Below, in pieces: positions 11,288 through 60,385 of a DNA stretch of 64,000 nt. Numbering within the stretch: the first letter of the stretch is position 1; every line of letters starts with the position of its first letter. Made by a program: the position numbers and the translations under genes. The DNA is taken from contig JAZKXO010000026.1 of the NCBI GenBank assembly GCA_045611685.1, forward strand, positions 18,623 through 82,622. Direction: 5' to 3'. Under the pieces are notes generated by a model. It was not told the origin of the DNA. It saw only the letters and a program-made list of their open reading frames with translations, and ran no database searches. The stretch comes from Eubacteriales bacterium. Its GTDB lineage: Bacteria > Bacillota > Clostridia > Oscillospirales > CAG-272.

Positions 11288-11390
11288 CAAAGGGACTTTT
11301 GAAAAAGTCCCTTTGAATCCTCAAAACTTTTAAACCTATAAAAAAATCACGTCTGTGCAAAAATTCCGCATAGACGTGATTTTGTTTTTT
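11288..11390 (+). terminator. composite 3'-end module after uvrA: palindrome + linker + GTGC-core hairpin with T-run
   Basis: CAAAGGGACTTTTGAAAAAGTCCCTTTG (11288-11315), then linker aatcctcaaaacttttaaacctata, then ATCACGTCTGTGC-loop-GCATAGACGTGAT followed by TTTTGTTTTTT (11346-11390). Confidence 0.8.
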
Positions 11391-12340: not shown

Positions 12341-12352
12341 AGAAAACAAAAA

Positions 12353-12445
12353 ATCACGTCTGTGCGTAATTTGGTGCACAAACGTGATTTTTATTTTTGT
12401 ATAAAAGTTTTTGGGGGCTGGGGGCTTTTTTCAAAAAGCCCCCAG
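12353..12445. terminator. bidirectional composite terminator module between the small ORF (+) and PFOR (-)
   Basis: ATCACGTCTGTGCG-loop-GCACAAACGTGAT + TTTTTATTTTT (12353-12399), then linker tataaaagttttt, then palindrome CTGGGGGCTTTTT-TC-AAAAAGCCCCCAG (12418-12445). Confidence 0.8.
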
Positions 12446-24016: not shown

Positions 24017-24028
24017 AAGATTCAAAAA

Positions 24029-24061
24029 GCGGCTGTGCGCGTTTTGCGTACAGCCGTTTTT
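24029..24061. terminator. terminator hairpin, left copy of a 33-nt perfect direct repeat
   Basis: gcggctgtgcgcgttttgcgtacagccgttttt is identical to 24721-24753. Confidence 0.85.
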
Positions 24062-24063
24062 CT

Positions 24064-24715: not shown

Positions 24716-24720
24716 AAACG

Positions 24721-24753
24721 GCGGCTGTGCGCGTTTTGCGTACAGCCGTTTTT
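24721..24753. terminator. terminator hairpin, right copy of the 33-nt direct repeat
   Basis: Identical to 24029-24061 and 692 bp away from it. Confidence 0.85.
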
Positions 24754-25154: not shown

Positions 25155-25164
25155 TGAAACAGAA

Positions 25165-25200
25165 AACGTCTGTGCGACGAACGCACAGACGTTATTTTTA
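25165..25200. terminator. bidirectional terminator between SLOG paralog 2 (+) and the permease (-)
   Basis: AACGTCTGTGCG-ACGAA-CGCACAGACGTT followed by ATTTTTA. It has the same CGTCTGTGCG core as the hairpins at 11346, 12353, 41701 and 42401. Confidence 0.8.
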
Positions 25201-40552: not shown

Positions 40553-41626
40553 ATGAAACTTCGTGAAAACTGCAAATACGCCTTGGTGTGCCCCACCTCC
40601 ATGGGTGTGCGCATCACGCCGCCGAACGGACAGCCCGTAGCATCCGCGAACACCTTCGTAATGCAGGCTACGTCTGCGGAAACGAACGTGCTTTCCATCT
40701 CCGCATTCCTCGGTCTGCCCACCAAGGTGCTGACCACCTTCGTAAAGGATTCCCCCATCGCCGACTTTATCAAGCGCGACCTGCGCGCCCGCGGCATGGA
40801 CTTTGAGGGCAAGGAAGTTGAGCAGGGCGGCCCCTGGGGCTACCGCCACCAGTTCAACATCGCCGATTCCGGCTACGGCAGCCGCGGTCCCCGCGTTTGC
40901 AACGACCGTGCAGGCGAGGTCGGACGCACGCTCAACATCAAGGATTTTGACCTCGACCGCATCTTCGGGGAGGAAGGCGTACAGATCCTCCACCTCTCCG
41001 GTCTTATCGGTGCACTCTCTCACGAGACGTCCATCTTCTGTCTGGAGCTTGCACGCGCCGCTAAGAAATACGGCACGCTGATCTCCTTTGACCTCAACCA
41101 CCGCGCTTCCTTCTGGAAGGGCCGTGAAGAGGAACTCCACGACATCTTCACCGAGATCGCTTCCGTTTCCGATATTCTCATCGGCAACGAGGAAGACTTC
41201 CAGCTGTGCCTGGGCGTACAGGGCCCCGAGGCAGGCGGCAAGGACATTGGCGCGAAGATTGACTCCTTCAAGGAGATGATCGGCAGAGTAAAGGCACAGT
41301 TCCCGAACGCATCCGTATACGCAACGACGCTTCGCCAGGTTGTGAACGTAAACAACCACCTGTGGGGCGCGATCCTTCTCGCCGGTGACGAGTGGCACGT
41401 CGTAGAACCCCGCCCGATCACCGTTCTCGACCGCATCGGCGGCGGCGACGGCTTCGTCGGCGGCATGCTGTACAGCATCCTCCGCGGCTGGGAGAGCGAA
41501 AAGTGGATCCAGTTCGGCTGGGCATCCGGCGCGCTCGCTACCACGTTCCTCACCGACTACGCACAGCCGGCAGACGAAGAGATGGTCTGGTCCGTCTGGG
41601 GCGGCAACGCAAGAGTTAAGAGATAA
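40553..41626 (+). CDS. PfkB-family sugar kinase (2-dehydro-3-deoxygluconokinase-like)
   Basis: 357 aa with DLNHR, IGNEEDF and the C-terminal DRIGGGDGFVGG ATP/anion-hole motif. Confidence 0.8.
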   Translation: MKLRENCKYALVCPTSMGVRITPPNGQPVASANTFVMQATSAETNVLSISAFLGLPTKVLTTFVKDSPIADFIKRDLRARGMDFEGKEVEQGGPWGYRHQFNIADSGYGSRGPRVCNDRAGEVGRTLNIKDFDLDRIFGEEGVQILHLSGLIGALSHETSIFCLELARAAKKYGTLISFDLNHRASFWKGREEELHDIFTEIASVSDILIGNEEDFQLCLGVQGPEAGGKDIGAKIDSFKEMIGRVKAQFPNASVYATTLRQVVNVNNHLWGAILLAGDEWHVVEPRPITVLDRIGGGDGFVGGMLYSILRGWESEKWIQFGWASGALATTFLTDYAQPADEEMVWSVWGGNARVKR

Positions 41627-41632
41627 TTATGG

Positions 41633-41745
41633 CGGGGGAAACTTTTTACAAAAAAGCTTCCCCCGTACCCCTTTCAAAAAACCTTTATACTGAAAAACAG
41701 AATCACGTCTGTGCGCGGTTTTTGCACAGGCGTGATTTTTTATCG
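41633..41745 (+). terminator. composite 3' module after the kinase gene; its hairpin is the left copy of a 45-nt perfect direct repeat
   Basis: Palindrome GGGGGAAACTTTTTACAAAAAAGCTTCCCCC (41633-41663), linker gtacccctttcaaaaaacctttatactgaaaaacag, then aatcacgtctgtgcgcggtttttgcacaggcgtgattttttatcg (41701-41745). Confidence 0.85.
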
Positions 41746-42045
41746 GAAGCAATTTCCGCAGAATGAATATCCCTCATTGATCAGCGCATCTGCCGCGCCT
41801 TCGTAATACCGGCGGTTTTCGTCGTGAATCAGAGCGGCAGTACCGCAGGTTATTTTGTGGATTTTCTTCGAACGGATGTTGAGAATGTATTCGTCTTGTA
41901 CGCTCTCCGTGTATTCGCGCTCGGGTTCGCTTCGGATAAGTATAATTTCTTCCTTGGCACAGGAGTTAAATAAAAGGAAAAAGAAGACAACAACCCATAT
42001 ACACCCTTTTCTCCACCGGGATGCGTGAGCTTTTTTTATTAGCAT
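41740..42045 (-). CDS. small membrane/lipoprotein with C-terminal Cys-rich metal-binding-like motif
   Basis: 101 aa with an N-terminal hydrophobic segment ending in NSC. The C-terminal KIHKITCGTAALIHDENRRYYEGAADALINEGYSFCGNCFR resembles the Ada-type Zn-binding tails of small Firmicute proteins. Confidence 0.55.
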   Translation of the reverse strand: MLIKKAHASRWRKGCIWVVVFFFLLFNSCAKEEIILIRSEPEREYTESVQDEYILNIRSKKIHKITCGTAALIHDENRRYYEGAADALINEGYSFCGNCFR

Positions 42046-42079
42046 TTCCCCTCGCCTCGCAAATAGTTTTTATTGCATT

Positions 42080-42121
42080 ATAACACCGTGCGGTGTTATT
42101 TGTCAATGCCGAACGGTGTTT
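42080..42121. promoter_or_regulatory. candidate operator sites in the divergent promoter region of the XRE gene
   Basis: Perfect palindrome ATAACACCG-TG-CGGTGTTAT (42080-42099), plus a third half-site CGAACGGTGTTT (42110-42121). Confidence 0.5.
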
Positions 42122-42164
42122 TTACGTATAATAACTTTATATAATAGATCTGTGAGGTTATTAT

Positions 42165-42368
42165 ATGTACGTCTACAAACGTATACGGGATCTACGGGAA
42201 GATCACGACAAAACGCAGAAAGAAATTTCTTCGTTTTTGAATATGCATCTGACCGTCTATCAGCGCTATGAGCGCGGAGAAAGAGAACTTCCTTTATGGG
42301 CGGCGATTAAACTGGCAGATTATTACCACGTCTCGCTCGATTATCTGGTCGGGCGAACGGATAAATAG
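42165..42368 (+). CDS. XRE-family helix-turn-helix transcriptional regulator (67 aa)
   Basis: MYVYKRIRDLREDHDKTQKEISSFLNMHLTVYQRYERGERELPLWAAIKLADYYHVSLDYLVGRTDK, a canonical Cro/C1 HTH with the DYLvGR tail. Confidence 0.85.
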   Translation: MYVYKRIRDLREDHDKTQKEISSFLNMHLTVYQRYERGERELPLWAAIKLADYYHVSLDYLVGRTDK

Positions 42369-42400
42369 AAGAACGCCCCGCAAAAACTCTATATAATACA

Positions 42401-42445
42401 AATCACGTCTGTGCGCGGTTTTTGCACAGGCGTGATTTTTTATCG
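42401..42445. terminator. terminator hairpin, right copy of the 45-nt perfect direct repeat (also ends the endolysin gene)
   Basis: Identical to 41701-41745 and exactly 700 bp away from it. Confidence 0.85.
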
Positions 42446-42446: not shown

Positions 42447-42965
42447 TCATATTTCGAAATATCCTCGGTTCAGCCGCGCGTGTGAAAAATTCGCGCACCC
42501 GGCCGTCCCGTACTGCCAAACCGTCGGCGAAAACGTAAGCGCACGCGCTTCGGTCACGCCCCACGAAAGGAGCCACACGGGATACGGCGAGGGCGTCTTT
42601 ACCGCCGCGGGCGGGGCGGCGAGCATCGGGGCAAACCCGGCTGCCGAAACGGCACGGAGAAACTTCTCCGCTTCGGGCATCTGTCTATTCTCCTCCGCGC
42701 GGCAGGCCGCCCAGAGGCGAACGCGCTCGCGAAGCGGTTTAATAAGCGAGAGAAACAGCAGAGCCTCCCTTCGCCCGTCCGCGAAAAGCTCGTGATACAC
42801 GCCGACGGCGATCCCCGCCCGCTCGGCGGCTATGATATTCTCACTAAAACGCTGATCGGGGACAAGGCCCGCCGATACGCGGATGAGCGCAAACGCGATG
42901 CCGGCGGCTTCGGCGCCCGCCCAATCAAAGCAGCCGTCACGGGCACAAACGTCGATCCCGTTCAC
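42447..42965 (-). CDS. GH25-type muramidase (endolysin), catalytic domain only
   Basis: MNGIDVCARDGCFDWAGAEAAGIAFALIRVS...GVYHE...VWQYGT follows the GH25 pattern GIDVSxxQGxIDW...IR...YH...WQY. Confidence 0.7.
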   Translation of the reverse strand: MNGIDVCARDGCFDWAGAEAAGIAFALIRVSAGLVPDQRFSENIIAAERAGIAVGVYHELFADGRREALLFLSLIKPLRERVRLWAACRAEENRQMPEAEKFLRAVSAAGFAPMLAAPPAAVKTPSPYPVWLLSWGVTEARALTFSPTVWQYGTAGCANFSHARLNRGYFEI

Positions 42966-43219
42966 GGAAAATCCTCCCTTTCGAGATCGTGCAGGCGGAT
43001 CTCATGCGCCTGCAGCTGCCGCCCGTGCGCCTCGATTTCCGCGTACATCTCCTCGTGCTCGCGATCGCGCTCTTTACGATCCCGCGAGAGTGCGTCACCC
43101 ATGTTTTTGACCGTTACGTCAAGCCTTGTGAGAACGGAGGACAACTTGAACCCGAGCGTTCCGACGGTAATGAGAAAGCCGCCGAGCGTAATAAGCCCCG
43201 CTACGATCGCCCAGGTCAT
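42962..43219 (-). CDS. putative holin / lysis-associated membrane protein
   Basis: 85 aa with one N-terminal TM segment (WAIVAGLITLGGFLITVGTLGF) and a charged coiled-coil tail. It overlaps the endolysin start by 4 nt. Confidence 0.45.
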   Translation of the reverse strand: MTWAIVAGLITLGGFLITVGTLGFKLSSVLTRLDVTVKNMGDALSRDRKERDREHEEMYAEIEAHGRQLQAHEIRLHDLEREDFP

Positions 43220-44460
43220 GAAATCTCCTCAAGAGAGCCCCGAGGCACGCCGTAGATAATGACGGCACCCGAGCCACCCGAACCGGAGTACGTATCCGTC
43301 TCGACAGCGCGGCCGCCGCCCGCACCGATTCCGCCCGCCACGCCGTCCGTGCCGGGGATAGTACCGCTTTTCTTCGTGCCGCTGATACCGCCTTCACCGA
43401 AGTAGGAATCGGCGCCTTTTTCCGTCGTGCCGACCTCTGCCGTAAAAATACCGACGACGGCAGGCGTTGCTTCTTGGCTTACACTTTCAAGGCCGCCCTC
43501 GCCGCCGGGGACAGAGAAGCCGTCAAAGGATGTACTGCCACCCCTCATTCCCGCAAAAGAGGAGTAGGTCGTTTTCTTCCGCTTTTCACCGCCTACACCG
43601 ACCGTAACGGCTACAGGCTTCATCGGCAAGGGGAGATGCGCAAGCACTGCCATACCGCCCGCCGAGCCGCCCGTACCTCCCGCAGAAGCGGCACCCGATC
43701 CGCCCGCGCCGATGAGAACGACCGTATAAAGCCCGTCCGCCGTGGGATATGCCGCGGGATCGAACGTACCGCTTTCGGTAATGCGGCAAAGCTCTTTCAT
43801 GCCGGGGAAAGCGTCAAGGAAAAAGCGGTACTGACCGTCGCCGCAGAGAAGCGTATCCGCGCCTGCATCGGTGCGGAACACGTTTGCCGCTTTCACGAGC
43901 TGTGCCGCATCCGCGCCGTCAAAATAATCACAAAGCGCGGTCTCGTAGCGGGCGAGCATCTCCTCGACCTCCAGCCGATTGAGGATGTAGTCCGCGCGCG
44001 GACGCAGATCGGTGAGATACGTCCCCTCGATAAACGTCTCGCCCGCCGGGATGAACACGGCGGCAAGCGGGATCTCTCTCACCGTATCGGTATAGGTGCA
44101 AATGGGTGCCGTCGGCATTTCGGCCGCCGTACCCGTGAGAATGGCGCAGCGCATCTCACGCGCCGTAAGATCCAGTCTCAAAACGACGCGGTCGATTCTG
44201 GGGAGCGCGGCATCCGCCTCGGCAAGGGAAAGCGAAAGCGCCGCCGTGTTTCGGTACGTGTATCCGTCGATCACCGCCGTGCCCGCGGCTACGTCGACCG
44301 CCATACCGCCGAGAGACGACGGCGTAACGGTAAGAGAATCGGCGCTCGTTACACCGTTTGAAACGTACGCCGCCCGCTCGGCGGCAAAATCCTCCGCTGT
44401 GTACACGCGATCCGGCACGCCGTCGATCGCCACAGCATTGAACGGAAATGATTTCTCCAT
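43216..44460 (-). CDS. phage tail fibre / receptor-binding-like protein with C-terminal glycine-rich domain
   Basis: 414 aa with an N-terminal FNAVAIDGVPDRVYTAEDFA... and C-terminal GAGGSGAASAGGTGGSAGG...GGIGAGGG repeats. Confidence 0.5.
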   Translation of the reverse strand: MEKSFPFNAVAIDGVPDRVYTAEDFAAERAAYVSNGVTSADSLTVTPSSLGGMAVDVAAGTAVIDGYTYRNTAALSLSLAEADAALPRIDRVVLRLDLTAREMRCAILTGTAAEMPTAPICTYTDTVREIPLAAVFIPAGETFIEGTYLTDLRPRADYILNRLEVEEMLARYETALCDYFDGADAAQLVKAANVFRTDAGADTLLCGDGQYRFFLDAFPGMKELCRITESGTFDPAAYPTADGLYTVVLIGAGGSGAASAGGTGGSAGGMAVLAHLPLPMKPVAVTVGVGGEKRKKTTYSSFAGMRGGSTSFDGFSVPGGEGGLESVSQEATPAVVGIFTAEVGTTEKGADSYFGEGGISGTKKSGTIPGTDGVAGGIGAGGGRAVETDTYSGSGGSGAVIIYGVPRGSLEEIS

Positions 44461-44496
44461 ATATAAATCTCCTTAAAAATGATAATGTGCCCGCCG

Positions 44497-45480
44497 TCAG
44501 CGGGTGAGTCGAACGGATACCGTATGACGGATGCCCGTCTCGTCCGCACAAACGGTCTTTTCCTCGCAAAAAGCCGTCCCGACGATGCCGAAAAGATCGT
44601 CCTCAATGAGACATTCTTCCCCCACGTGCAAGGATGCCGCCGCGGCCGCTGACACGTCGATGCTGACCGAACGGATGCCGCGGTGCTCGGCGAGCACGCG
44701 TTTGCCCTCCGCTCTGAGGGTCAAAAGATACTCTTCGTCCGACGGGAAAAGCGAGGGTGCGATCTTATACGCATTATGATATATCTCCGAAAGCGGAGCT
44801 GCCGCGTCGTCGATGCCGTCGTCGAACAGCCCCACCGCCGAAACGGTAACGGTGCGCCCGTCGTAACCCTTCACGATTACCGAGTTTTTGTAATTTTCGC
44901 CCTCCGTTACGCGCACGCCGCCCGTAAGATCACCGCCGCCGCGCGACAGACGGAGCTTTGCCGCCGTGCGGCTTTGCGCGGCGAACAGAAAACCGCCGTC
45001 CGTCACGGCAAGGCGCATACCGAGCCCCGATGCACGACAGACGGATTTCATCGCGGAAAGAAGCGATCCGCCGCCGATCACCATATCCACCGCCTCGGGA
45101 AAGCCGTACTCGACCGTCGAGAGCGGCGCGGGGAGAACGGATGCCCCCCACTCGCTCGAAAGACCGAGGAGAACCGTCTCCGCATCGCCCGAAACGCGGC
45201 GGTACTCCGGCATCTGCCGCCCTTCAAAATAGGAAAGGATCCCGCGCCCCTTGACCGTGGCAATGCCCTCTGCGGCATCCTCCCTTATTTCACCGACGGT
45301 AAAGGCTCCGATCCCGGGGATCACAAGAACGTCCCCCGCCATAAAGCGGCGGGCATCGGAGAGGGGCACGGCAAGCGTACACGCCCCCGGCGCCGAAAAC
45401 GACTCCGAGGCGGTAACCGTAAGTGCCGCATCAGAGATGCTTTTGAGAGTAAGCGAAGAATTAAAAATCCGAATATCCAT
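44497..45480 (-). CDS. phage tail structural protein (Siphovirus Gp37-like)
   Basis: It starts MDIRIFNSSLTLKSISD... at ATG 45480 (RBS GAGGAGGGG). Its position is between the Dit-like and fibre genes. The family call is from memory of the Gp37-like N-terminal pattern. Confidence 0.45.
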   Translation of the reverse strand: MDIRIFNSSLTLKSISDAALTVTASESFSAPGACTLAVPLSDARRFMAGDVLVIPGIGAFTVGEIREDAAEGIATVKGRGILSYFEGRQMPEYRRVSGDAETVLLGLSSEWGASVLPAPLSTVEYGFPEAVDMVIGGGSLLSAMKSVCRASGLGMRLAVTDGGFLFAAQSRTAAKLRLSRGGGDLTGGVRVTEGENYKNSVIVKGYDGRTVTVSAVGLFDDGIDDAAAPLSEIYHNAYKIAPSLFPSDEEYLLTLRAEGKRVLAEHRGIRSVSIDVSAAAAASLHVGEECLIEDDLFGIVGTAFCEEKTVCADETGIRHTVSVRLTR

Positions 45481-45490
45481 AAGCCCCTCC

Positions 45491-46312
45491 TCAGTGATAA
45501 AGCGGCGTGATGGCAACCGATACCGCCGCCGTGCCGTCGCCCTCGCTCTGCCAGGTAAGCTTGTTCTCCCCCGGCTCAAGGGCGAACATCACGCTGTCCA
45601 CGGTGAGCCCACCGATCGCGGACGCGTCCCCGACCGTTACCGTTTTTTTCGAGGGGCGCGTGTCGATCACCATAGAGGCACCGATCGGCAAGGGATAAAC
45701 GACGGAGATCTTCTCCCCCGACTCTGCCGTCACGGTGAAAGAGGTGAGATCGCTCCACTCTGCCAGGACAGTGAGAACGAACCCGCACGGCACGTCGCCG
45801 GGGTTTTCTACCGTAATCTCGCCCTCGCCCGTGCTCAGGGCAAATACCGTGCCCTCGTCCATACGAAAGGGGAAGACGAGTTTCCCCGTCCAGCCGCGCT
45901 CGGACGCTGTCTCCACCGGCGCTGAAAAATACGCGGCGGTGGCACTTTTTGCCTCGGCATAAACGCTAAAGAACGCCGCCTCGTCTCCGTTGAGCGGTGC
46001 TTCGTGCGCGAAAACGGGCGCCTGTTTCGCCGTCAGATCAATGCTCCGTTCGCCCACCCGAAGAGTGAACCCGCCTCTGTTCGTTACGATACGGCGAAGG
46101 CGGCGAGAGAGAAGCTCCTTCTCGGCCGCGCGCGAAGTCGGCGTTCCCCCGACGGGCAGAATATAGCCCGAAAACGTAACCGAACGCCCCGCCGTGCGAT
46201 CACCCGCAAGCTTTGCCGCCCCCGCATCGAAATCGTGCAGAACGTATCCGCCGCGACCGAAAATGACTGTGTCCCGTCCGTTTGTAATCGAAATCGTATC
46301 GCATACCGTCAT
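45491..46312 (-). CDS. phage tail family protein (distal tail protein-like)
   Basis: 273 aa starting MTVCDTISITNGRDTVIFG.... The C-terminal ...FALEPGENKLTW... is typical of siphovirus tail-component proteins. Its start overlaps the upstream stop (ATGA at 46309-46312). Confidence 0.5.
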   Translation of the reverse strand: MTVCDTISITNGRDTVIFGRGGYVLHDFDAGAAKLAGDRTAGRSVTFSGYILPVGGTPTSRAAEKELLSRRLRRIVTNRGGFTLRVGERSIDLTAKQAPVFAHEAPLNGDEAAFFSVYAEAKSATAAYFSAPVETASERGWTGKLVFPFRMDEGTVFALSTGEGEITVENPGDVPCGFVLTVLAEWSDLTSFTVTAESGEKISVVYPLPIGASMVIDTRPSKKTVTVGDASAIGGLTVDSVMFALEPGENKLTWQSEGDGTAAVSVAITPLYH

Positions 46313-46818
46313 CCGAACACCACCTTCCCCATAACGCCCGCGTCGTCCGATTCCGCGATAAGCGAAAACTTCCACGCGGAATCTCTTTCGGGAGAAAGCG
46401 AAAGCTCTGCCCCCGACGAAGCCGACGCGATCAGGGAAAAGACGACCTCGCCGCCGCCTGCCGACTCGGGAATTTCCGCAACGAGCACGATGCGCACCCG
46501 CGCATGCCGCCCCGCGTCCGTCTTGCCGCCGAGATATACGACGGATCCGTCCGTGGGCGAGCCGGTAGCCGCCGCCAGAACGCGCGGATACAGGCGGACG
46601 AGCCTGCCCTCGATTCTGACTCTTGCGCCGTAGCGCACCGAGCGGACGACCTCGCCGTCCCAGCCCTTGATCTCGTGCACCTTCGCACTGTACTGAAGCT
46701 TCACGCCGCCCTTCGTCGCCCCGGCGTAAAAGCGGAGCGAACGCGCCGCAGCCTCACTCACCTCAGCGGGCGCTATATACAATCGCCCCGCACCGAGGGC
46801 GTAATATTTCTCTTCCAT
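46309..46818 (-). CDS. putative major tail (tube) protein
   Basis: 169 aa starting MEEKYYALGAGRLYIAPAEV..., with RBS GGAAGGAGA. The call rests on size and position after the head-tail joining genes. Confidence 0.4.
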   Translation of the reverse strand: MEEKYYALGAGRLYIAPAEVSEAAARSLRFYAGATKGGVKLQYSAKVHEIKGWDGEVVRSVRYGARVRIEGRLVRLYPRVLAAATGSPTDGSVVYLGGKTDAGRHARVRIVLVAEIPESAGGGEVVFSLIASASSGAELSLSPERDSAWKFSLIAESDDAGVMGKVVFG

Positions 46819-46874
46819 AGATCTCCTTCCTACACATACAACTGTCAAACAAAGCGCGGAGACCGAACCCGAGC

Positions 46875-46964
46875 GTTTCCGGTATTCCGCCCTAGGCGGA
46901 ACGCTGTCTCTCTTGACAGCGCGGAAACCTCGCCGAGTAATCCGTGCCAAAGCACGGATTACTC
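46875..46964 (-). promoter_or_regulatory. structured intergenic element: three-way junction plus 13-bp hairpin between the head-tail joining genes and the tail gene
   Basis: On the + strand, GTTTCCG (46875-46881) pairs with CGGAAAC (46922-46928). This closes the hairpins TTCCGCC-CTA-GGCGGAA and CGCTGTC-TCTCTT-GACAGCG. It is followed by GAGTAATCCGTGC-CAAA-GCACGGATTACTC (46935-46964). Confidence 0.5.
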
Positions 46965-47321
46965 GCCGCACCTTCCTTGTATCTCAAAACCTGCCTGCAG
47001 ATAATAGAGCCCACATCCGCGAACGTAGCCGCCGCGGCCGCCCTCCTTCGTCCCGCAGATGACAAGCGAATCAGCACCGATCCCGACGACACCCGTGTCG
47101 CCGTCTGCGAGAAGCGCCCGCTGCAGTGCCGAAATCTCCGACGCCGCCGCATCGGGCGAGCGATGGAACACGCGCACTTCAAATCTTGCCGTTCTGAGCG
47201 CGCCGTCGCCCCGTCCGGGGTAATACCGATACACCGCCGAGGGGGAAAGACTTTTCCCCGGCGCGGGCGAAAGCGGCACGGTAAGTGCCGACGATGCGGC
47301 TTTCACTACGCGATCATGCAT
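46959..47321 (-). CDS. phage head-tail joining / tail-completion-like protein
   Basis: 120 aa. The call is based on position only. Confidence 0.35.
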   Translation of the reverse strand: MHDRVVKAASSALTVPLSPAPGKSLSPSAVYRYYPGRGDGALRTARFEVRVFHRSPDAAASEISALQRALLADGDTGVVGIGADSLVICGTKEGGRGGYVRGCGLYYLQAGFEIQGRCGE

Positions 47322-47619
47322 CGGGGCACCCCTCCTCTACGTAGATTCTCTCACATTTCACACGCCAAATCCTGCCAAGATCGACCGGCACGAGCATCCG
47401 ATACACGGCGTCCCCGCGCGTGATCGTCATCCCGCGGCGAAAGCCGCCCACGGGGGTATATCTCGCGGGGATAAGAGCGAGCACAGTCGCCGACGCGCGG
47501 TCGAGATCGTCCTCCATGATTTCCTCCGCCGTGCGGTGTGAGATGACCGCCATGACCGTGCCCACACTCTCGCCGTCCTTGTTCTTTAAGATGAACGTGC
47601 GCAAAAGACGACGCATCAT
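47314..47619 (-). CDS. phage head closure / head-tail adaptor-like protein
   Basis: 101 aa. The call rests on position and size; its start overlaps the upstream stop. Confidence 0.4.
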   Translation of the reverse strand: MMRRLLRTFILKNKDGESVGTVMAVISHRTAEEIMEDDLDRASATVLALIPARYTPVGGFRRGMTITRGDAVYRMLVPVDLGRIWRVKCERIYVEEGCPDA

Positions 47620-47936
47620 CGAGATCCCCCCCGTCTGCCGCCCGGATGGCGGATGGCGTACAGCTGACGCATCACCGAGTCGCTGTATCCGTCCAGGTAC
47701 GCCTCGGTCGCGCCCGAGACGGCGCGGGATTTTACCCCCGCACCGTCCAGTTTCCCATAGTCCTCCGCCACCATCTGTGAAAGCAGAAAATCCGGCACGC
47801 GCTCCTCGGCTCTCAATCGGCAGAAGGCGCGAACGTATGCCTCGGCATCCGCGAGAAGCGTGTGGATGAGGGCGTCATCCGTCTCATCCGTCCCGTCAAG
47901 CCCCAGCCGCATACGCATTTCCTTTACTGTAATCAT
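47616..47936 (-). CDS. phage gp6-like head-tail connector protein
   Basis: MITVKEMRMRLGLDGTDETDDALIHTLLADAEAYVRAFC matches the usual vKxhLRvd...D.li..li.aA pattern. Confidence 0.6.
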   Translation of the reverse strand: MITVKEMRMRLGLDGTDETDDALIHTLLADAEAYVRAFCRLRAEERVPDFLLSQMVAEDYGKLDGAGVKSRAVSGATEAYLDGYSDSVMRQLYAIRHPGGRRGGSR

Positions 47937-47966
47937 CGTTTTCCGTCCTTTCCCGTTTCAAAGATA

Positions 47967-47978
47967 GAACAAATGTTC
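47967..47978. promoter_or_regulatory. GAAC-N4-GTTC palindrome (Cheo/LexA-box-like), copy 1
   Basis: GAACAAATGTTC within tAGAACAAATGTTCTttttgg, between the capsid stop (47987) and the connector start (47936). Confidence 0.55.
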
Positions 47979-47986
47979 TTTTTGGA

Positions 47987-49015
47987 TCAGAGAGAGACGA
48001 CGGCGCTTTTCAGAACGAGGCCGTTCTCGTCGGCTTCTGCAACGGCGATGCGGTTTGCGTTCGCCTTCTTAATCGGGGACGTGCCGTCCCATGCCTCAAA
48101 GGAGGAAACGTCATCGCCGAGAAGCGGCGCATCCGCGTCGTAGAGGACGTAGAGGGCGTTCTCGTCGGCGCTCTTGCCGGAAACGGTAAGAGTGATCTCG
48201 CCGTCTGCGGTCTCAGCGGTAACGGTCAAGGCCGGTGCCGCCTCGCCGAGGATGACGGAGGAGGTGTCGTCCACCAGAGCGATCACGCCGTGGCGCTCGT
48301 AGACGATTGTGTTCTCCTTCTTCTCGATGTCGCGGCTCTGCTCAAGGCCTGCCTCGCGCTTGACGAAGAATTTGACAGCAGCCTTTTCGGTGATGATGAC
48401 CTTGCCCGCCGGCACGAGCTTGGAGAAGAGCACCGGAATACCGCACAGCGTACCGAACTGACCACTGTACACGATCTCGCCCTGATGCGCGGAGATGAAA
48501 TCGGGATCACGGCGGATCGCGGTGCGGCCGTCCGCACCCATAAGGATAAAGAGCCCGTCCTCGACCTCGCGGCCGATGTTGCCGAGTGCCTCGACGATAT
48601 CCGTGTAGGTGAGCGTCTCACCTGCGATCGCGTGGCGGTTCTTGATCTGCTTCAGCTGATCGAAATACTCGACGCGAAGCTGATTTGCCATCACGTCAGC
48701 GGCACCGGCAAGCGCCACGTCGATGAGGGCGGGATCCTGCATCGCTTCCACGTCGTTGTAGCGGAAGGTCTGCTGATAACGCTTTACGGTATAACTCTCC
48801 GGTGTGAAGGAGATAGAGCCTGCGGCGGAGTTTGCCTTACCGCCCTCCAGCGTCTCCACGGTACCGTTGTAGGTATAGCGGTTGATGATTTTGGTGAGAC
48901 CCGCACCCTCCGAGAGAGAGTCGTCCACCGTCATAAGGGAACGAACCTCGAGCTTGGAGTTGAGGATCTCGGTCAGCTTTGCTTCAAGTACGCTGTTTTC
49001 ATAAACTGTGTTCAT
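47987..49015 (-). CDS. phage major capsid protein
   Basis: 342 aa located after the scaffold gene. The N-terminal region MNTVYENSVLEAKLTEILNSKLEVRSLMTVD...YTYNGTVETL is capsid-like. The C-terminal ~90 aa look like an extra Ig-like or decoration domain. Confidence 0.7.
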   Translation of the reverse strand: MNTVYENSVLEAKLTEILNSKLEVRSLMTVDDSLSEGAGLTKIINRYTYNGTVETLEGGKANSAAGSISFTPESYTVKRYQQTFRYNDVEAMQDPALIDVALAGAADVMANQLRVEYFDQLKQIKNRHAIAGETLTYTDIVEALGNIGREVEDGLFILMGADGRTAIRRDPDFISAHQGEIVYSGQFGTLCGIPVLFSKLVPAGKVIITEKAAVKFFVKREAGLEQSRDIEKKENTIVYERHGVIALVDDTSSVILGEAAPALTVTAETADGEITLTVSGKSADENALYVLYDADAPLLGDDVSSFEAWDGTSPIKKANANRIAVAEADENGLVLKSAVVSL

Positions 49016-49076
49016 AGAATACTACCTTTCATAAAAGAAATATTGTTGTTTCGGAGTTTTGGGGCATTCCCCATAC

Positions 49077-49589
49077 TCACATCATCTCTGCGAGCTTTGC
49101 GATCGGCGTCTCACGGATGATCTTCCCCGTAAGTGCCGAAGCCTCACCCATACCGGGGCGGATCCCCTCCGTTTTTTCGCGGATTGCACGGGCTGCCGCG
49201 GCATCGATGGCGCCCGCCAGCATCTCCACACGGGCAGAAAGTATCTCGTCGGTCAGATCGGTGTCATAGGGGGTAAGAAGGAGCGACACCATCTCCTCCC
49301 CGAGAGAGTGCGCGCGGAGCATTTTCTCACAGCGGATCTCCGTCTCGCGGCGCGCCGCACGCTCGTCCGCCCGAGCGAGCGCTTCCCTGAGCGATTCGAT
49401 CTCCGCCGTCATCTCGACCGCCGCGGCTGCCGTCTCCCGTTCCCTTTCGGCTTCCCACGAAAGACGCGCCTCACTGAGTCGCGCCGCAAGATCGGCGGCT
49501 GTAAACACCTCCGCCGGTGCATCTTCGACTGCGGGCACGTCGATCGGATCTGCCGTCTCGCTCTCTTTTTCAAAAATCTCGTCCGTCAT
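49077..49589 (-). CDS. phage scaffolding protein
   Basis: 170 aa, acidic and predicted helical/coiled-coil, located between the portal and capsid genes. Confidence 0.55.
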   Translation of the reverse strand: MTDEIFEKESETADPIDVPAVEDAPAEVFTAADLAARLSEARLSWEAERERETAAAAVEMTAEIESLREALARADERAARRETEIRCEKMLRAHSLGEEMVSLLLTPYDTDLTDEILSARVEMLAGAIDAAAARAIREKTEGIRPGMGEASALTGKIIRETPIAKLAEMM

Positions 49590-50833
49590 TCTTTATCCTC
49601 CGATAGAGATTCCTCGTCCCTTATGCGCTGCATTTCCTCGTCTGCATTCTCCACAAACGGCAGATGCTCAACGACGGTGCGGCGGGAGAGGATTCCCTGA
49701 AGCTTCGTCGCCATATCGGCGGCTTCCTCCGGCATGCCGGGCAAGTTTCGGGTGAAGATCATGCGGATAGAATCCGCGTCGTACCCGCCGCCGGAAAGAT
49801 TGAGAAGCCGAGCGACAAGACGCCATCGCTTTATAAGGCCGCGGCGGAAGTACTGCTCCGTTACCGCCACGCGGTTTTCGAAATTGAGCATACGCCAGCG
49901 GATCGCCACGCCCGAGAGCGTGTTGCCCGTGAGCGTTTCCTCCGCCATATCGACCGTGCCGGAGAAGCGGTAGATGTCCTTGGCGATTCTCGCCTTCAAA
50001 TTTTCGATGTAGGCGTCGTTCACCGTTTTCGTCAGCCATTTTGCGTCCCCGCCCTCATCGAGCAGGATCACGCGGTCGCGGCGAATGCGGGCAAGGTCCT
50101 CCTCATCCGTACCGCCCATACCGGAAATGGCAAGATAACTGTCCGCAAACAGTTCGAAATCGTTGACAGACGCGCTCTCCAGACGGTTGTACGCATCAAT
50201 GAGCGAGATGACCGGCTCAAAATCGCCGAGCCTGTCGCGGTTGTTCTCGTAAAAGATCACGGGAACCTCCCCGAAGAGATGCTCCGTGCGGCTCTCCAAG
50301 CGGAGAGTCTGCCCGTCGTAGCGGTAGACGGTCATCGCCGCCTCATCGTACACCTCGACGGTGATATCCTCGGCATCGCGGCGGCGATAGTAGCGTATCG
50401 CGCCGAGAAGACGGGGCTCAACCGCGTCGTCGTACACGGGGATAACGGTATCGGCATCGATCGGCGTGAATCGGGGCTTCGTTACGTCGTCGTACCAGAC
50501 GAGCTCACAAGCCCTGCCCGAGACGGACAGATCCCGCGCGAGCGCGTTGTTCGCAAAGCGCTCGTGATTCGCCGCTCCCACGTTTTTCAGCATCGCGAGC
50601 GTCTTTTCATCAGCAGTGTACGAAACACCGCGTCCCATGAAATAGCCGACCGTGCAGTCGGTGATGTTGCGGCAGAAATTGTTGACGAGGCGGTTGTCCG
50701 GCAAATCCGGATCTCTCGCCGCCTTCAAAATATCGTGGCGCCCGAGATAATACGCCTTGAGCTTCATAAGGCGCGGCGCCTCACCCGCCATAAATTCCGT
50801 GAGGCGGGCGAGAATGGTTTTTTCGTTCAGCAT
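49586..50833 (-). CDS. phage portal protein (SPP1 gp6-like)
   Basis: About 415 aa from ATG 50833 (MLNEKTILARLTEFMAGEAPRLMKLKAYYLGRHDIL...), a typical SPP1-type portal N-terminus, located downstream of TerL. Confidence 0.75.
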   Translation of the reverse strand: MLNEKTILARLTEFMAGEAPRLMKLKAYYLGRHDILKAARDPDLPDNRLVNNFCRNITDCTVGYFMGRGVSYTADEKTLAMLKNVGAANHERFANNALARDLSVSGRACELVWYDDVTKPRFTPIDADTVIPVYDDAVEPRLLGAIRYYRRRDAEDITVEVYDEAAMTVYRYDGQTLRLESRTEHLFGEVPVIFYENNRDRLGDFEPVISLIDAYNRLESASVNDFELFADSYLAISGMGGTDEEDLARIRRDRVILLDEGGDAKWLTKTVNDAYIENLKARIAKDIYRFSGTVDMAEETLTGNTLSGVAIRWRMLNFENRVAVTEQYFRRGLIKRWRLVARLLNLSGGGYDADSIRMIFTRNLPGMPEEAADMATKLQGILSRRTVVEHLPFVENADEEMQRIRDEESLSEDKE

Positions 50834-50861
50834 AAGATTCCTTTCTGTAATACCTTTTGGA

Positions 50862-52145
50862 TCAAATCCCCAGCATCCTTTTGGAGATCGTCCGTTTTTG
50901 CCCGCGCGGATGACGGAGCGGCTCCGTTGCATAGCGGAGTGCCGCCATCGCGTCGTCGCGGCCGGGCGCGGGGACGTCGAGCACCTCGCCGCTCTCCCCG
51001 TCCACCTGCCAGCGCCACTCCCGTATCTCCGAGATCACGTTTTCTGCCGACGCGTCGATGACGATCTCCCTCTGCTTCAGATACTCGATCTGTCCGAGAA
51101 TACTTCCCGGCTCCTTTTTCACGCCCTCGGCGCGAAATCCCGCCTTTCGCCACATCCGTATCCGATCCGGCTCGGCGCTGTCACAGTACATCGGCAAATT
51201 TTGGGGGAAGCCCGCCTCCTTTGCCATCTCAATGATCTCCGCCGTGTCTCTTTCACGCACGTACAGCTCACGGAGAATGTAGAAAACCCCGTCCCGCATC
51301 CCGACAAGGAGAAGACAGTTGGCGTGATTGTAGCCGAAATCCTGCGCCAGCCAGGCGCTGTCGTAAAATCCGACGTCCTTTTCTACGTTTGCCACTCGCC
51401 ACCTTGTCAAAATCAAGCCCTCGCGGGCCGATCCCCACTCGCCGAGCGCGTACACGGCGTACCCCACCGGATCTTCTCGCTCTCTCCGCTCCATGCGCTT
51501 TTTGAAATCCGCGTCCGAGAACGCGTTGCTTTTATACGTCGAGTGATGAATAAATACGTCCTCACTCGGCGGTGCGTCAAAAAACCGTTTTTTCAGAAAA
51601 TGGTTTGCCGAGACCGGATTGAACGTCATCGTGATCTGGTAATACAAAAAGGGGTTCACCGCCCCAAGATCCCCACGGAGACGGTCGTCGAGAATGTCGA
51701 GGTCCGAGGAGGTAAGCTCCGTTGCCTCCTCGCACCAGATCCATGTCAGTTTCCCGGATTGGAACGCCACGCTCTTTACTCTCTCGCGCTGGCTGTCTTC
51801 CTTCATTCCGCGAAACATGATCCGACTGCCCGTCACGAGGGAGGTCAGGGAAAGCGGCTCCTTCGTTATCGCCCAGAACTCGTCCGCCCGATCGCCGAAG
51901 ATACGCCTGACCGCGCCGGAGAGTTCCTCAAACACCGAGAAGCGGCAGGCGTTCTCCGTCTTGCGGATCACAAGCAGATTCGCCCCGAAATACCGCATAT
52001 CCGACAGTTTCATTATAAAATCCTGTGCCACATTGAAGCTTTTCCCCGATCCCGCACCGCCGTAGAGAATGCGGTAACGCGCACGGGTTCGGTTTGCCTC
52101 ACGGAAGGACTCGTTGAAAGGAACGATTCGTTCACACGTATTCAC
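50862..52145 (-). CDS. phage terminase large subunit (PBSX-type)
   Basis: Walker A RYRILYGGAGSGKSFNVAQDF, Walker B/coupling region WIWCEEATE, and a C-terminal nuclease half. A probable GTG start at 52145 overlaps the TerS stop. Confidence 0.85.
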   Translation of the reverse strand: MNTCERIVPFNESFREANRTRARYRILYGGAGSGKSFNVAQDFIMKLSDMRYFGANLLVIRKTENACRFSVFEELSGAVRRIFGDRADEFWAITKEPLSLTSLVTGSRIMFRGMKEDSQRERVKSVAFQSGKLTWIWCEEATELTSSDLDILDDRLRGDLGAVNPFLYYQITMTFNPVSANHFLKKRFFDAPPSEDVFIHHSTYKSNAFSDADFKKRMERREREDPVGYAVYALGEWGSAREGLILTRWRVANVEKDVGFYDSAWLAQDFGYNHANCLLLVGMRDGVFYILRELYVRERDTAEIIEMAKEAGFPQNLPMYCDSAEPDRIRMWRKAGFRAEGVKKEPGSILGQIEYLKQREIVIDASAENVISEIREWRWQVDGESGEVLDVPAPGRDDAMAALRYATEPLRHPRGQKRTISKRMLGI

Positions 52146-52464
52146 AGCGAATGATGAGCGACGGCGCACCGCCGTCCGCACGGCCGGCGGACGCCATAAG
52201 GCGGAGATTTTCAAGCGCACGGATCCGTTCTCCGGGCTTTATCTCGCCCGTCTCGTCGAACGCCATCCGCTCGTACTCCCGACGGATCGAGGCGAGCACC
52301 GCCTCGCTGAGGCGTGCAGAAACAAGCCGATCAACCTCGTCCCTCGCATCTTTAAGAAGCGCGTACGCCTCGCCGCGCGTAATCCCTGCCGATACCGCCG
52401 CCCCCGGAAGATTGTAATCGCGAGCAAATCTCTCGAGAAACCGCCGCCTTTTCTCGTTTGTCAT
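52132..52464 (-). CDS. phage terminase small subunit (HTH-like N-terminus)
   Basis: 110 aa from ATG 52464 (MTNEKRRRFLERFARDYNLPGAAVSAGITRGEAYALL...), with RBS AAAGGAGAG, immediately upstream of TerL. Confidence 0.55.
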   Translation of the reverse strand: MTNEKRRRFLERFARDYNLPGAAVSAGITRGEAYALLKDARDEVDRLVSARLSEAVLASIRREYERMAFDETGEIKPGERIRALENLRLMASAGRADGGAPSLIIRCEYV

Positions 52465-52496
52465 AAACGCATCTCTCCTTTTCAACGCACCCAAAA

Positions 52497-52508: not shown

Positions 52509-52562
52509 TTTTTGGCGTAAAATGATAACCGCCACACGGCGGTATCACGAAACTGTATGCGT

Positions 52563-60367: not shown

Positions 60368-60385
60368 GCTGTTTTTTTTATTATA

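What the first reader, a model, noticed from the sequence alone, without database searches (positions are those of the whole stretch)
41701..42445. 700-bp two-gene islet bounded by a 45-nt perfect direct repeat of a terminator hairpin
aatcacgtctgtgcgcggtttttgcacaggcgtgattttttatcg occurs at 41701-41745 and again, identically, at 42401-42445, exactly 700 bp apart. Between the copies lies an AT-rich block. It holds a 101-aa membrane/lipoprotein with a Cys-rich C-terminal tail (minus strand), a 119-bp divergent region containing the palindrome ATAACACCG-TG-CGGTGTTAT, and a 67-aa XRE regulator (plus strand). The stop codon of the minus-strand gene is embedded in the T-tail of the left hairpin. A perfect 45-nt duplication at the borders suggests one of two things: insertion of a cassette into or next to a terminator with duplication of the hairpin, or recombination between terminator copies. 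The islet sits directly at the lysis end of the phage-like operon, so the XRE could instead be that operon's regulator.
Basis: seen in the sequence. Interest (0 to 1): 0.6.

Follow-up and report, generated by a model that had tools for sequence, protein, structure and literature searches.

The report
Twin terminator hairpins around regulator islet
The perfect 45-base repeat is two copies of a terminator hairpin that this bacterial lineage reuses in many places, kept identical by local recombination around an old two-gene unit, so it is not the scar of a newly inserted mobile cassette.

Summary
Two perfect 45-nt copies of a strong hairpin, 700 bp apart, bracket an AT-rich pair of divergent genes: an XRE repressor and a small lipoprotein.

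The insertion-with-duplication reading fails. Two related species (kdgK about 87% DNA identity) carry the same XRE/lipoprotein unit next to kdgK, with unrelated terminators on each side. One of them lacks the phage-like cluster entirely.

The hairpin belongs to a dispersed, lineage-specific family of bidirectional terminator palindromes. The window holds five copies with the same 14-nt arms and two related ones. Two related MAGs hold seven more, some solitary between ordinary convergent genes.

Strains of this species carry two or three copies at this locus, and two loop variants are shuffled among the positions. One strain has a 210-bp perfectly homogenised tract. Another has a chimeric lipoprotein gene. 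This is gene conversion and unequal recombination, which also adds or removes a second cassette.

One point stays open. A second hairpin-bounded XRE islet (24017-24815) is cleanly present or absent among strains, and its empty site has no hairpin. Some such islets therefore move with their own hairpins.

Interest is modest.

The parts
40553..41626 (+). Left neighbour: PfkB-family sugar kinase (kdgK-like), convergent with the lipoprotein gene
   Evidence: Pfam PfkB E 1.8e-16. It is 95-96% aa identical in two other species that carry the same downstream unit.
41632..41666 (+). Proximal hairpin after kdgK (GGGGGAA..TTTTT..AAAAA..TTCCCCC), followed by the spacer motif AAAACCTTTATAC at 41678-41690. 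Both belong to a second dispersed intergenic family.
   Evidence: Folds at -21 kcal/mol, z -4.4. The spacer motif has 5 copies in the window against 0.03 expected. The hairpin and the start of the spacer are conserved after kdgK in L020 and L022.
41701..41745 (.). Left copy of the 45-nt hairpin. Bidirectional terminator between kdgK (+) and the lipoprotein gene (-). It contains that gene's stop codon and last codon.
   Evidence: In all other strains this position carries loop variant v1; the window carries v2.
41740..42045 (-). 101-aa small lipoprotein or membrane-anchored protein. Signal peptide, then a C-terminal domain with invariant His62, Cys66, Cys95 and Cys98 and an N-Ada-like zinc-domain fold.
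   Evidence: ORF. Alignment A1 gives the invariant residues and shows the lipobox in homologues. AlphaFold pLDDT is above 90 for residues 50-100. The top four PDB fold matches are N-Ada (1u8b prob 0.99, E 0.19). The profile finds 3810 cluster representatives. Relatives are fused to secreted nucleases or MBL hydrolases, with Pfam Ada_Zn_binding hits.
42077..42106 (-). Promoter of the lipoprotein gene: TTGACA, 18-nt spacer, TG, TATAAT (12 of 12 consensus positions)
42080..42099 (.). Perfect 20-bp palindrome ATAACACCGTGCGGTGTTAT that fills the spacer of the lipoprotein promoter. Inferred XRE operator.
   Evidence: Sequence and position relative to the promoter. It is the only such site in the window apart from the adjacent degenerate copy. 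Binding is inferred, not tested.
42105..42120 (.). Degenerate second copy of the operator (AATGCCGAACGGTGTT), overlapping the -35 of the lipoprotein promoter and lying upstream of a TATAAT at 42127-42132 that probably serves the XRE gene
   Evidence: 2 mismatches. The promoter assignment is my reading of the sequence.
42165..42368 (+). 67-aa XRE-family HTH regulator
   Evidence: Pfam HTH_3 E 7.3e-11. phrog_8 transcriptional regulator E 6e-18. Orthologues are 82-85% aa identical in L020 and L022. It is present next to the lysin in all 23 contigs read for this exact protein.
42401..42445 (.). Right copy of the 45-nt hairpin. Bidirectional terminator between the XRE gene (+) and the lysin gene (-). 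It carries a non-functional copy of the TTATCG tail.
   Evidence: The tail varies among strains (TTATCG, TTATTG, TTTTCG).
42447..42965 (-). Right neighbour: GH25 lysin, last gene of a 10-kb phage-like head/tail/lysis cluster (42447-52548)
   Evidence: Pfam Glyco_hydro_25. Cluster content.
11343..11383 (.). Family member with the same 14-nt arms and a different loop. Left border of an AT-rich 1-kb islet.
12350..12389 (.). Family member, right border of the same islet. It lies at the 3' end of the long gene 12458-16093 (-). A hairpin with a similar loop follows what looks, from its N-terminal sequence, like the same gene in a related MAG (L017).
24025..24061 (.). Related hairpin (GCGGCTGTGCGCGTTTTGCGTACAGCC), left border of islet 2
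24720..24750 (.). Related hairpin, right border of islet 2. It is identical to the left one over 33 nt in this strain.
25163..25196 (.). Family member between the SLOG-111 gene (+) and the convergent gene 25198-26439 (-; its close relatives in L024/L032 carry Pfam CitMHS). It has the same TTTTTATCGGA tail as the left 45-mer.

Best explanation
The islet is an old, self-contained divergent transcription unit at the 3' end of kdgK. An XRE repressor probably sits on a 20-bp palindrome that fills the spacer of a consensus promoter and so shuts off a small surface lipoprotein with an Ada-like zinc domain. Each gene of the pair runs head-on into a neighbour: kdgK on the left, the lysin on the right. 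Each border therefore needs a two-way terminator.

In this species both borders are occupied by copies of one lineage-specific, dispersed family of bidirectional terminator palindromes (arms AATCACGTCTGTGC / GCACAGRCGTGATT, variable loop). The two copies are 100% identical because nearby copies at this locus exchange sequence by gene conversion and unequal homologous recombination. The same process adds, deletes and homogenises a second, paralogous cassette in other strains.

Shown here: the repeat, the family, its absence around the orthologous unit in other species, the strain variants and the mosaic tracts.

Inferred: terminator function, XRE binding to the palindrome, and conversion as the process behind the mosaics.
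For: (1) The same arms recur five times in the window. CGTCTGTGC occurs 6 times against 0.38 expected, always inside these hairpins. There are seven more copies in two Eubacteriales MAGs. Three of them are solitary, between ordinary convergent genes with no AT-rich islet.

(2) Orthologous unit without the repeat. L020 and L022 (6PGD and kdgK 85-87% DNA identity, XRE 74-77%, lipoprotein 61-62%, unit GC 0.44-0.48 in all three species) have lipoprotein + XRE next to kdgK with two different terminators. No family hairpin occurs in those 12-kb loci.

(3) Strain series. L001 carries loop variants v1,v1,v1. L002, L007, L009 and L011 carry v1,v1,v2. L003, L004 and L008 carry v1, a truncated copy, then v2. 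The window carries v2,v2.

(4) In L001 the two 245-bp repeats (spacer + hairpin + 3' half of the lipoprotein genes) are identical over about 210 bp. In L002 and L003 they keep gene-specific differences.

(5) L005 has one lipoprotein gene that is lipoB-type at repeat positions 154-182 and lipoA-type from position 210. This is the expected product of a crossover between the repeats.

(6) The hairpin folds on both strands, with a U-tract after it on the + strand at both copies and on the - strand at the left copy. Behind the right copy the - strand tail is only U-rich.

(7) The lipoprotein promoter matches consensus at 12 of 12 positions, and the palindrome lies exactly in its spacer.
Against: Gene conversion between copies that share only about 45-70 bp (left versus right hairpin) is inefficient. 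The window's state needs either two events or a history I cannot reconstruct.

All relatives are metagenome assemblies. Repeats of 210-245 bp could be collapsed by assemblers, which would fake the one-cassette forms.

The explanation does not say how the family hairpins first came to replace the older terminators on both sides.

Islet 2 (24017-24815) is absent from 7 contigs whose empty site has no hairpin. At least that islet carries its own hairpins as part of an inserted or deleted block. This fits a cassette-borne origin better than a simple terminator-reuse story.
Confidence: 0.68

Rival explanations
1. The hairpin-bounded islets are a family of small mobile cassettes (regulator + small effector). 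Their terminal direct-repeat hairpins are recognition sites for a trans-acting enzyme, such as an IS200/IS605-type Y1 transposase acting on hairpin ends (PATE-like) or an integron-like recombinase. The 45-nt repeat is then the pair of cassette ends.
For: Several islets have the same architecture and are bounded by direct-repeat hairpins of this family. They are islet 1, islet 2 and the RHH + SLOG islets of L014 and L016. The three most AT-rich segments of the window are exactly the three hairpin-bounded ones. Islet 2 is present or absent among strains, and both hairpins go with it. A second cassette (lipoB + YlcI-like) is present or absent at the kdgK locus. A different XRE islet with a family-like hairpin follows the same ACT gene in another species. 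Cargo proteins have phage-family affinities.
Against: No identical cassette was seen at two different loci. The XRE of islet 1 was at the same locus in all 23 contigs read. Islet 1 is orthologous across three species, and two of them lack the hairpins. Family members also stand alone as ordinary terminators. Loop length varies from 5 to 10 nt, which is unlike a fixed crossover region. The indel borders of islet 2 lie 8 and about 75 nt outside the hairpins, with no clean target duplication. No transposase or integrase lies next to any islet. The hairpin was not found in IMG/VR or the JGI metagenomes, and the islets gave nothing meaningful in GenBank phages: no match for islet 1, and one partial 68%-identity match over 30% of islet 2.
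Confidence: 0.12
2. A foreign two-gene cassette inserted into the single bidirectional terminator between kdgK and the lysin, and the insertion duplicated the 45-bp target.
For: Perfect 45-nt direct repeat at both borders. AT-rich content. The right copy carries a non-functional copy of the lipoprotein gene's stop and last codon.
Against: No empty kdgK-hairpin-lysin site was found. L022 has kdgK - unit - phage cluster with different terminators on each side, and L020 has the unit without the cluster. The unit is therefore older than the repeat. A 45-bp target duplication is far longer than those made by known transposases (my knowledge). In relatives the two flanking copies differ, v1 against v2, so identity is strain-specific rather than a scar of insertion.
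Confidence: 0.04
3. The islet is part of the phage-like element. It would be its repressor plus a lysogenic-conversion or superinfection-exclusion lipoprotein (a moron at the lysis end), with the hairpins as the element's own terminators.
For: It lies directly after the lysin, the usual place for conversion genes in Firmicutes prophages (my knowledge). The XRE matches phage repressor families (phrog_8; RstR-like, below cutoff). The XRE is retained next to the lysin in every strain, even where the lipoprotein gene is deleted or interrupted.
Against: L020 has the orthologous unit next to kdgK with no phage-like cluster. The operator palindrome has no copy near the cluster's promoter; the leader palindrome there (GATACCGCCGTGTGGCGGTTATC) differs in sequence and spacing. 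The cluster has no integrase or att repeat, and no hairpin copy at its far end.
Confidence: 0.1

Closest known systems
Dispersed extragenic palindromes (REP/BIME of enterobacteria; BOX, RUP and SPRITE of pneumococci), including the old proposal that REPs evolve by gene conversion
   Same: A short palindrome family that is species- or lineage-specific. It sits downstream of genes, mostly between convergent genes. The arms are conserved and the loop is free. Copies are homogenised locally. Reviews: PMC3733652, PMC12306157 (which cites Higgins 1988), PMC3049150.
   Different: These hairpins carry a U-tract and look like true intrinsic terminators, which REP-finding tools deliberately exclude (PMC12306157). 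The CGTC motif lies inside the paired stem, not as an unpaired end tag (PMC3733652). The copy number seen is low. No RAYT is known.
Phage 'morons' (promoter + gene + terminator inserted between genes that are adjacent in relatives, with deviant base composition)
   Same: Islet 2 and cassette B meet the description (PMC4378225). They have their own promoters, are terminator-bounded and AT-rich, and are absent between the same neighbours in other strains. Islet 1 shares the architecture and lies at the lysis end of a phage-like cluster.
   Different: They are in a bacterial chromosome. They hold two divergent genes with a regulator. Islet 1 itself is conserved across species rather than variably present.
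IS200/IS605-family elements and their non-autonomous derivatives (PATEs)
   Same: About 700-bp units with a hairpin near each end, both in the same orientation. The left hairpin also acts as a terminator (my knowledge of IS200).
   Different: There is no tnpA. No repeated copies of one element were seen. The hairpins also occur singly as ordinary terminators. The insertion borders of islet 2 do not sit at fixed distances from the hairpins.
Integron gene cassettes / attC arrays
   Same: Small cassettes in tandem, separated by imperfect palindromes (three hairpins and two cassettes in L001).
   Different: The hairpin has no R'/R'' GTTRRRY boxes. Loop lengths vary. The cassettes carry their own promoters and regulators. 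No integrase is nearby. Integrons are not known in this bacterial group (my knowledge).
Ltp-type prophage lipoproteins that block superinfection (Streptococcus thermophilus TP-J34)
   Same: A small repressor-linked lipoprotein with a nucleic-acid-binding-type domain, next to phage genes. This is a resemblance recalled from memory.
   Different: There is no sequence or fold relationship. The domain here is N-Ada-like. Function was not tested.

Membership tests
Intrinsic (Rho-independent) bidirectional terminator | Stable G+C-containing stem-loop immediately followed by a U-tract on the transcribed strand, on both strands for a two-way terminator | tested here: met
   + strand: 16-17 pairs, -24.6 kcal/mol, followed by TTTTTTAT. 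- strand: -18.6 to -19.9 kcal/mol, followed by CUGUUUUUC at the left copy. The tail is weaker (UGUAUUAUAU) at the right copy.
Intrinsic (Rho-independent) bidirectional terminator | Transcripts actually end there | not testable with these tools
   Needs Term-seq or 3'-end mapping.
REP-like dispersed palindrome family | Many extragenic copies of one palindrome in a genome | tested here: inconclusive
   Five same-arm copies and two related ones in 64 kb. Five copies on four contigs of one MAG and two in another. No complete genome was available for a census.
REP-like dispersed palindrome family | Unpaired GTAG or CGTC tag at one end of the palindrome (PMC3733652) | tested here: not met
   CGTC is present but lies inside the paired stem, five bases from the foot.
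REP-like dispersed palindrome family | Associated RAYT (Y1 HUH transposase) gene | not testable with these tools
No transposase-like gene appeared among the window proteins I scanned, but the window was not annotated in full.
Transposon insertion with target-site duplication | Relatives with an empty site that carries one copy of the duplicated sequence | tested here: not met
   No empty site was found. Other species have the unit with two unrelated terminators.
Integron cassette array (attC) | R''/R' boxes (RYYYAAC ... GTTRRRY) at the foot of the palindrome and an intI gene | tested here: not met
   The 45-mer has no GTTRRRY. No integrase was found among the genes scanned around the locus.
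IS200/IS605 or PATE | Same element, with its hairpin ends, present at several loci, plus a Y1 transposase in the genome | tested here: inconclusive
   The cargo of islet 1 was seen at one locus only. The cassettes that share the hairpins have different cargo. The transposase could not be searched for.
Moron-like islet | Own promoter and terminator(s), deviant base composition, absent between the same two genes in close relatives | tested here: inconclusive
   Promoter, terminators and composition are met. Absence in relatives is not met for islet 1, which is present in three species. It is met for cassette B and for islet 2.
XRE-family (Cro/CI-type HTH) regulator | HTH_3 domain above the Pfam gathering score | tested here: met
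   42.4 bits against a cutoff of 23.
Ada_Zn_binding-like domain (PF02805) | Four zinc ligands on the N-Ada fold; match to the Pfam model | tested here: inconclusive
   The protein itself has no Pfam hit even at E 5. The invariant residues are H62, C66, C95 and C98. The top four PDB fold hits are N-Ada, with weak E-values of 0.13-2.2. Profile relatives match PF02805.

The most novel reading that the evidence does not exclude
These Eubacteriales carry an undescribed kind of mini-cassette. It is about 0.7 kb and AT-rich, with one small DNA-binding regulator and one small effector (an Ada-like lipoprotein or a SLOG/DprA-like protein). It is bounded by direct-repeat copies of a terminator hairpin that double as recombination sites. 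Cassettes would then be captured, stacked in tandem and lost at the 3' ends of operons without any cassette-encoded enzyme.
Probability: 0.12. Interest if true: 0.65.

Novelty: new member of a known kind. Interest (0 to 1): 0.32.

Why it matters
A perfect direct repeat around a small AT-rich block is usually read as an insertion scar. Here comparison with other strains and species shows a different cause: reuse and local homogenisation of a dispersed terminator palindrome. This is a useful caution for genome scans.

The case also documents a lineage-specific terminator family in uncultured gut Eubacteriales. The family acts as portable homology, driving gain, loss and chimerism of small regulator-effector units.

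If the minority reading is right, it would point to an enzyme-independent or still unknown way of shuffling small cassettes in Firmicutes, a group that lacks integrons.

Tried and rejected
- **Public collections.** The hairpin pattern gave 0 hits in JGI metagenome contigs and in IMG/VR. It hit only two MAGs in genome contigs.
- **Exact-protein look-ups.** The 101-aa and 63-aa products found nothing.
- **Rfam.** Nothing reached threshold at the hairpins or in the 11.3-12.4 kb islet. A 31-bit trpB-motif match at 11288-11389 is far below its 59-bit gathering score, so I treat it as chance.
- **Uptake-signal idea** (arms conserved because they are DUS/USS-like). Rejected, because the 9-mer never occurs outside the hairpins.
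- **attC and target duplication.** Rejected; see the membership tests.
- **Prophage att site.** Rejected. There is no copy at the far end of the phage-like cluster and no integrase.
- **Relic lipoprotein 3' end behind the right hairpin.** I considered this because the lysin ends ...NRGYFEI and the lipoprotein ends ...NEGYSFCGNCFR. Rejected, because the L022 lysin, which has no hairpin, also ends ...NRGYW.
- **Outgroup for the direction of the islet 2 indel.** Inconclusive. One species has a different XRE islet at the site, and another has different synteny.
- **DNA search against GenBank phages.** Nothing useful.
- **PADLOC.** Only weak partial hits, ShosA/PsyrA-like for the SLOG proteins.
Full report
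**1.

The 45-mer occurs at 41701-41745 and 42401-42445 with no mismatch. Nothing else in the window comes within 3 mismatches, and none is expected by chance. The bases just outside the two copies differ, so the repeat is exactly 45 nt.

It folds into a 17-pair hairpin of -24.6 kcal/mol (z -5.7) followed by a T-run. On the opposite strand it still folds at -18.6 to -19.9 kcal/mol, and the left copy is followed by CUGUUUUUC. It therefore looks like a two-way intrinsic terminator.

GC between the copies falls to 0.39-0.47, against 0.57 overall. The genes are as described:
- a 101-aa protein on the minus strand (41740-42045), whose stop and last codon lie inside the left copy;
- a 67-aa XRE/HTH_3 protein on the plus strand (42165-42368).

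The minus-strand gene has a promoter that matches consensus at 12 of 12 positions (TTGACA, 18 nt, TG, TATAAT; 42106-42077). The 20-bp palindrome at 42080-42099 fills its spacer exactly. A degenerate second site at 42105-42120 overlaps the -35. I infer classical repression of the lipoprotein gene by the XRE, probably with autoregulation. Binding was not tested.

**2. The hairpin is one of a family**

The same 14-nt arms, with different loops, occur at 11343, 12350 and 25163. A related hairpin occurs twice, at 24025 and 24720. The core 9-mer CGTCTGTGC occurs six times against 0.38 expected, and only inside these hairpins. That rules out an uptake-signal-like motif scattered through genes.

In 185,579 representative genomes the pattern hits only two Eubacteriales MAGs, with seven copies by my looser regex. 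Three of those copies stand alone between ordinary convergent genes, with no AT-rich islet. The copy in L017 has a loop similar to the window's 12350 copy. It follows what looks, from its N-terminal sequence, like the same long gene. If that correspondence is right, the family is older than this species and also serves as an everyday terminator.

**3. The two-gene unit is older than the repeat**

The lipoprotein has only nine close homologues. Two of them lead to other species whose 6PGD and kdgK are 85-87% identical in DNA to the window.
- In L020 the order is dxs, XRE66, XRE107, then divergently the lipoprotein, then kdgK. There is no phage-like cluster at all.
- In L022 the order is phage-like cluster, 650 bp, XRE66, XRE107, then divergently the lipoprotein, then kdgK.

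In both species the unit is AT-rich (GC 0.44-0.48). In both it is flanked by two different terminators that resemble neither each other nor the AATCACG hairpin.

So the unit did not arrive by inserting into a terminator and duplicating it. In the window's lineage both old terminators were replaced by family hairpins. On the left the replacement is almost length-for-length, after a shared spacer.

It also argues against the XRE being the regulator of the phage-like operon. The unit exists without that operon, and the operator has no copy near the operon's promoter.

**4. Why the two copies are identical: recombination among copies at this locus**

Metagenome contigs that encode the identical kdgK or XRE show four arrangements.

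| Arrangement | Structure | Contigs |
|---|---|---|
| a | hairpin, cassette B (93-aa lipoprotein + 57-aa YlcI/YnfO-like protein), hairpin, cassette A (101 aa + XRE), hairpin | L001 (= L006), L002 (= L007), L009, L011, L019; L012 is cut inside cassette B on its kdgK side |
| b | cassette A only | window, L005 |
| c | cassette B plus XRE; the 101-aa gene is deleted from the foot of the middle hairpin to its 5' end | L003, L004, L008 |
| d | IS3-family element abutting the 5' end of the 101-aa gene | L013 (possibly a chimeric contig) |

Cassettes A and B share a 245-bp repeat: spacer, hairpin and the 3' half of the lipoprotein gene. Three lines of evidence point to exchange between copies.
- **Shuffled loop variants.** Two loop variants are distributed differently among positions. 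L001 has v1,v1,v1. L002 has v1,v1,v2. The window has v2,v2. The tail after the right copy also varies.
- **A homogenised tract.** In L001 the two 245-bp repeats are identical over about 210 bp. In L002 and L003 they keep gene-specific differences.
- **A chimeric gene.** L005's single gene is lipoB-type at repeat positions 154-182 and lipoA-type from position 210. This is the footprint of a crossover that deleted cassette B. The window shows a weaker pattern of the same kind.

The right copy in the window and in L001 carries TTATCG. That is the lipoprotein gene's stop and last codon, and it has no function at the right copy. This points to copying from a lipoprotein-side hairpin.

Local flanking pairs are 78-100% identical, against a mean of 72% for non-local pairs. 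The perfect match in the window is therefore a strain-specific state, not a structural constant.

Caveat: all relatives are short-read assemblies. A 210-245-bp repeat can be collapsed by an assembler, so the one-cassette forms need long-read confirmation.

**5. What keeps the case from being entirely ordinary**

The three most AT-rich segments of the window are exactly the three bounded by family hairpins.

Islet 2 (24017-24815) has the same architecture. It has a hairpin, a SLOG/DprA-like 114-aa gene on the minus strand, a divergent promoter region, an HTH_26 XRE on the plus strand and a second hairpin. After that comes an outward promoter for the downstream SLOG-111 gene, a 60%-identical paralogue.

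Seven contigs of the same species lack the whole 796-799 bp. In them the ACT gene's stop is followed by CTTC and then the SLOG-111 start, with no hairpin. There the hairpins belong to the variable block.

The two hairpins of islet 2 differ by a few nucleotides in most strains. They are identical over 33 nt in the window strain.

Two related MAGs have an RHH + SLOG islet bounded by family hairpins at another locus. A further species has a different XRE islet, with a family-like hairpin, after the same ACT gene.

I could not fix the direction of the islet 2 indel with an outgroup. I found no enzyme, no cassette at two loci and no clean target duplication. The mobile-cassette reading therefore stays a minority possibility.

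**6. The cargo**

The AlphaFold model of the lipoprotein is confident for residues 50-100. Its four best PDB matches are the N-terminal zinc domain of E. coli Ada, with weak E-values. His62, Cys66, Cys95 and Cys98 are invariant.

A profile of the family finds 3810 cluster representatives. Many are about 100-aa proteins, and many carry the domain on larger proteins. Of ten larger ones scanned, most are secreted DNA/RNA endonucleases or MBL hydrolases, and some match Pfam Ada_Zn_binding.

The product is therefore probably a surface-anchored zinc domain that binds nucleic acid. What it does there is unknown. A role in blocking or capturing incoming DNA is a guess.

**7. Comparison and verdict**

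The closest known things are dispersed extragenic palindromes that evolve in concert (REP-type families; PMC3733652, PMC12306157, PMC3049150) and moron-like islets (PMC4378225).

It is not a REP in the strict sense, because the CGTC is paired and a U-tract is present. It is also not a target duplication, an attC array or a demonstrable IS200/IS605 derivative.

I file it as a new member of a known kind. It is two copies of a lineage-specific bidirectional terminator palindrome around an old XRE-controlled unit, homogenised and rearranged by local recombination.

Confidence is 0.68 and interest 0.32.

Noticed in passing
window 24017-24815 (hairpins 24025-24061 and 24720-24750): Second hairpin-bounded AT-rich islet: a SLOG/DprA-like 114-aa gene (-), an HTH_26 XRE 66 aa (+) and an outward promoter for the paralogous SLOG-111 gene. 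It is cleanly absent from 7 contigs of the same species, whose empty site has no hairpin. The direction of the indel is unresolved.
   Followed up: yes
window 11407-12162 (between hairpins 11343 and 12350): Three tandem 252-nt units. Each has a near-consensus promoter, a strongly folded RNA of about 150 nt (z -8.1) whose variable stem appears by eye to covary between copies, a terminator and the start of a short ORF. Only the last unit continues into a 63-aa ORF. No Rfam family matches.
   Followed up: partly
window 42447-52548: A 10-kb phage-like cluster with a small terminase-like gene (by position and sequence only), large terminase, SPP1-type portal, a 170-aa gene in the scaffold position, capsid, three small genes in the head-tail adaptor position, Dit, a Gp37-like protein, a Gly-rich protein, a holin-like gene and a GH25 lysin. 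I found no integrase, replication genes or tape-measure-sized gene among the ORFs examined. It lies between the XRE and dus. L022 has homologous tail and lysis genes at the same place next to the XRE/lipoprotein unit (lysin 53% aa identity; the head end of that contig was not examined). It is absent from L020. It may be a domesticated or GTA-like element.
   Followed up: partly
window 52500-52720 (- strand): Upstream of the cluster's first gene (small terminase-like): a perfect TTGACA-17-TATAAT promoter with TG, then two leader hairpins (GATACCGCCGTGTGGCGGTTATC with a U-run, and AAGAACAAATGTTCTT with a U-run). This suggests attenuation or antitermination control.
   Followed up: no
L013 593-1779: An IS3-family element (rve + HTH ORFs) abuts the 5' end of the 101-aa lipoprotein gene. 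The other side is a lower-GC trpB-like gene, so the contig may be chimeric across the IS.
   Followed up: partly
window 11290-11335, 12399-12450, 19747-19759, 41632-41690, 60199-60211, 60305-60368: Another dispersed intergenic family: a GGGGGAA..TTTT..AAAA..TTCCCCC hairpin, usually followed by GTACCCC and the spacer motif AAAACYTTTATAC (5 copies against 0.03 expected), often just upstream of the AATCACG-type hairpin. The hairpin and the start of the spacer are conserved after kdgK in other species.
   Followed up: partly
window 4069, 19829, 30489, 40234: A third repeated palindrome, TTTTCTTTG-N12-CAAAGAAAA, in four copies. It looks like another two-way terminator family.
   Followed up: no
window 29123-29329 (-): 6S RNA (Rfam RF00013, 50 bits, above the gathering score).
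   Followed up: no
L022 4600-5260; L041 3440-3620: G+C-rich blocks of nested short palindromes (for example GTAGGGCGGGGG..CCCGCC) fill the gaps next to the XRE units in related species. The same GGGCGGGGGCTTGTCTCCCGCC hairpin is the lipoprotein-side terminator in L020 and L022.
   Followed up: no
window 41740-41890 (C-terminal half of the 101-aa protein): The N-Ada-like His/Cys3 domain is widespread (3810 cluster representatives). It occurs alone on small lipoproteins, and in one to six copies on secreted endonucleases, MBL hydrolases and dockerin proteins. The small lipoproteins tested here have no Pfam match.
   Followed up: partly
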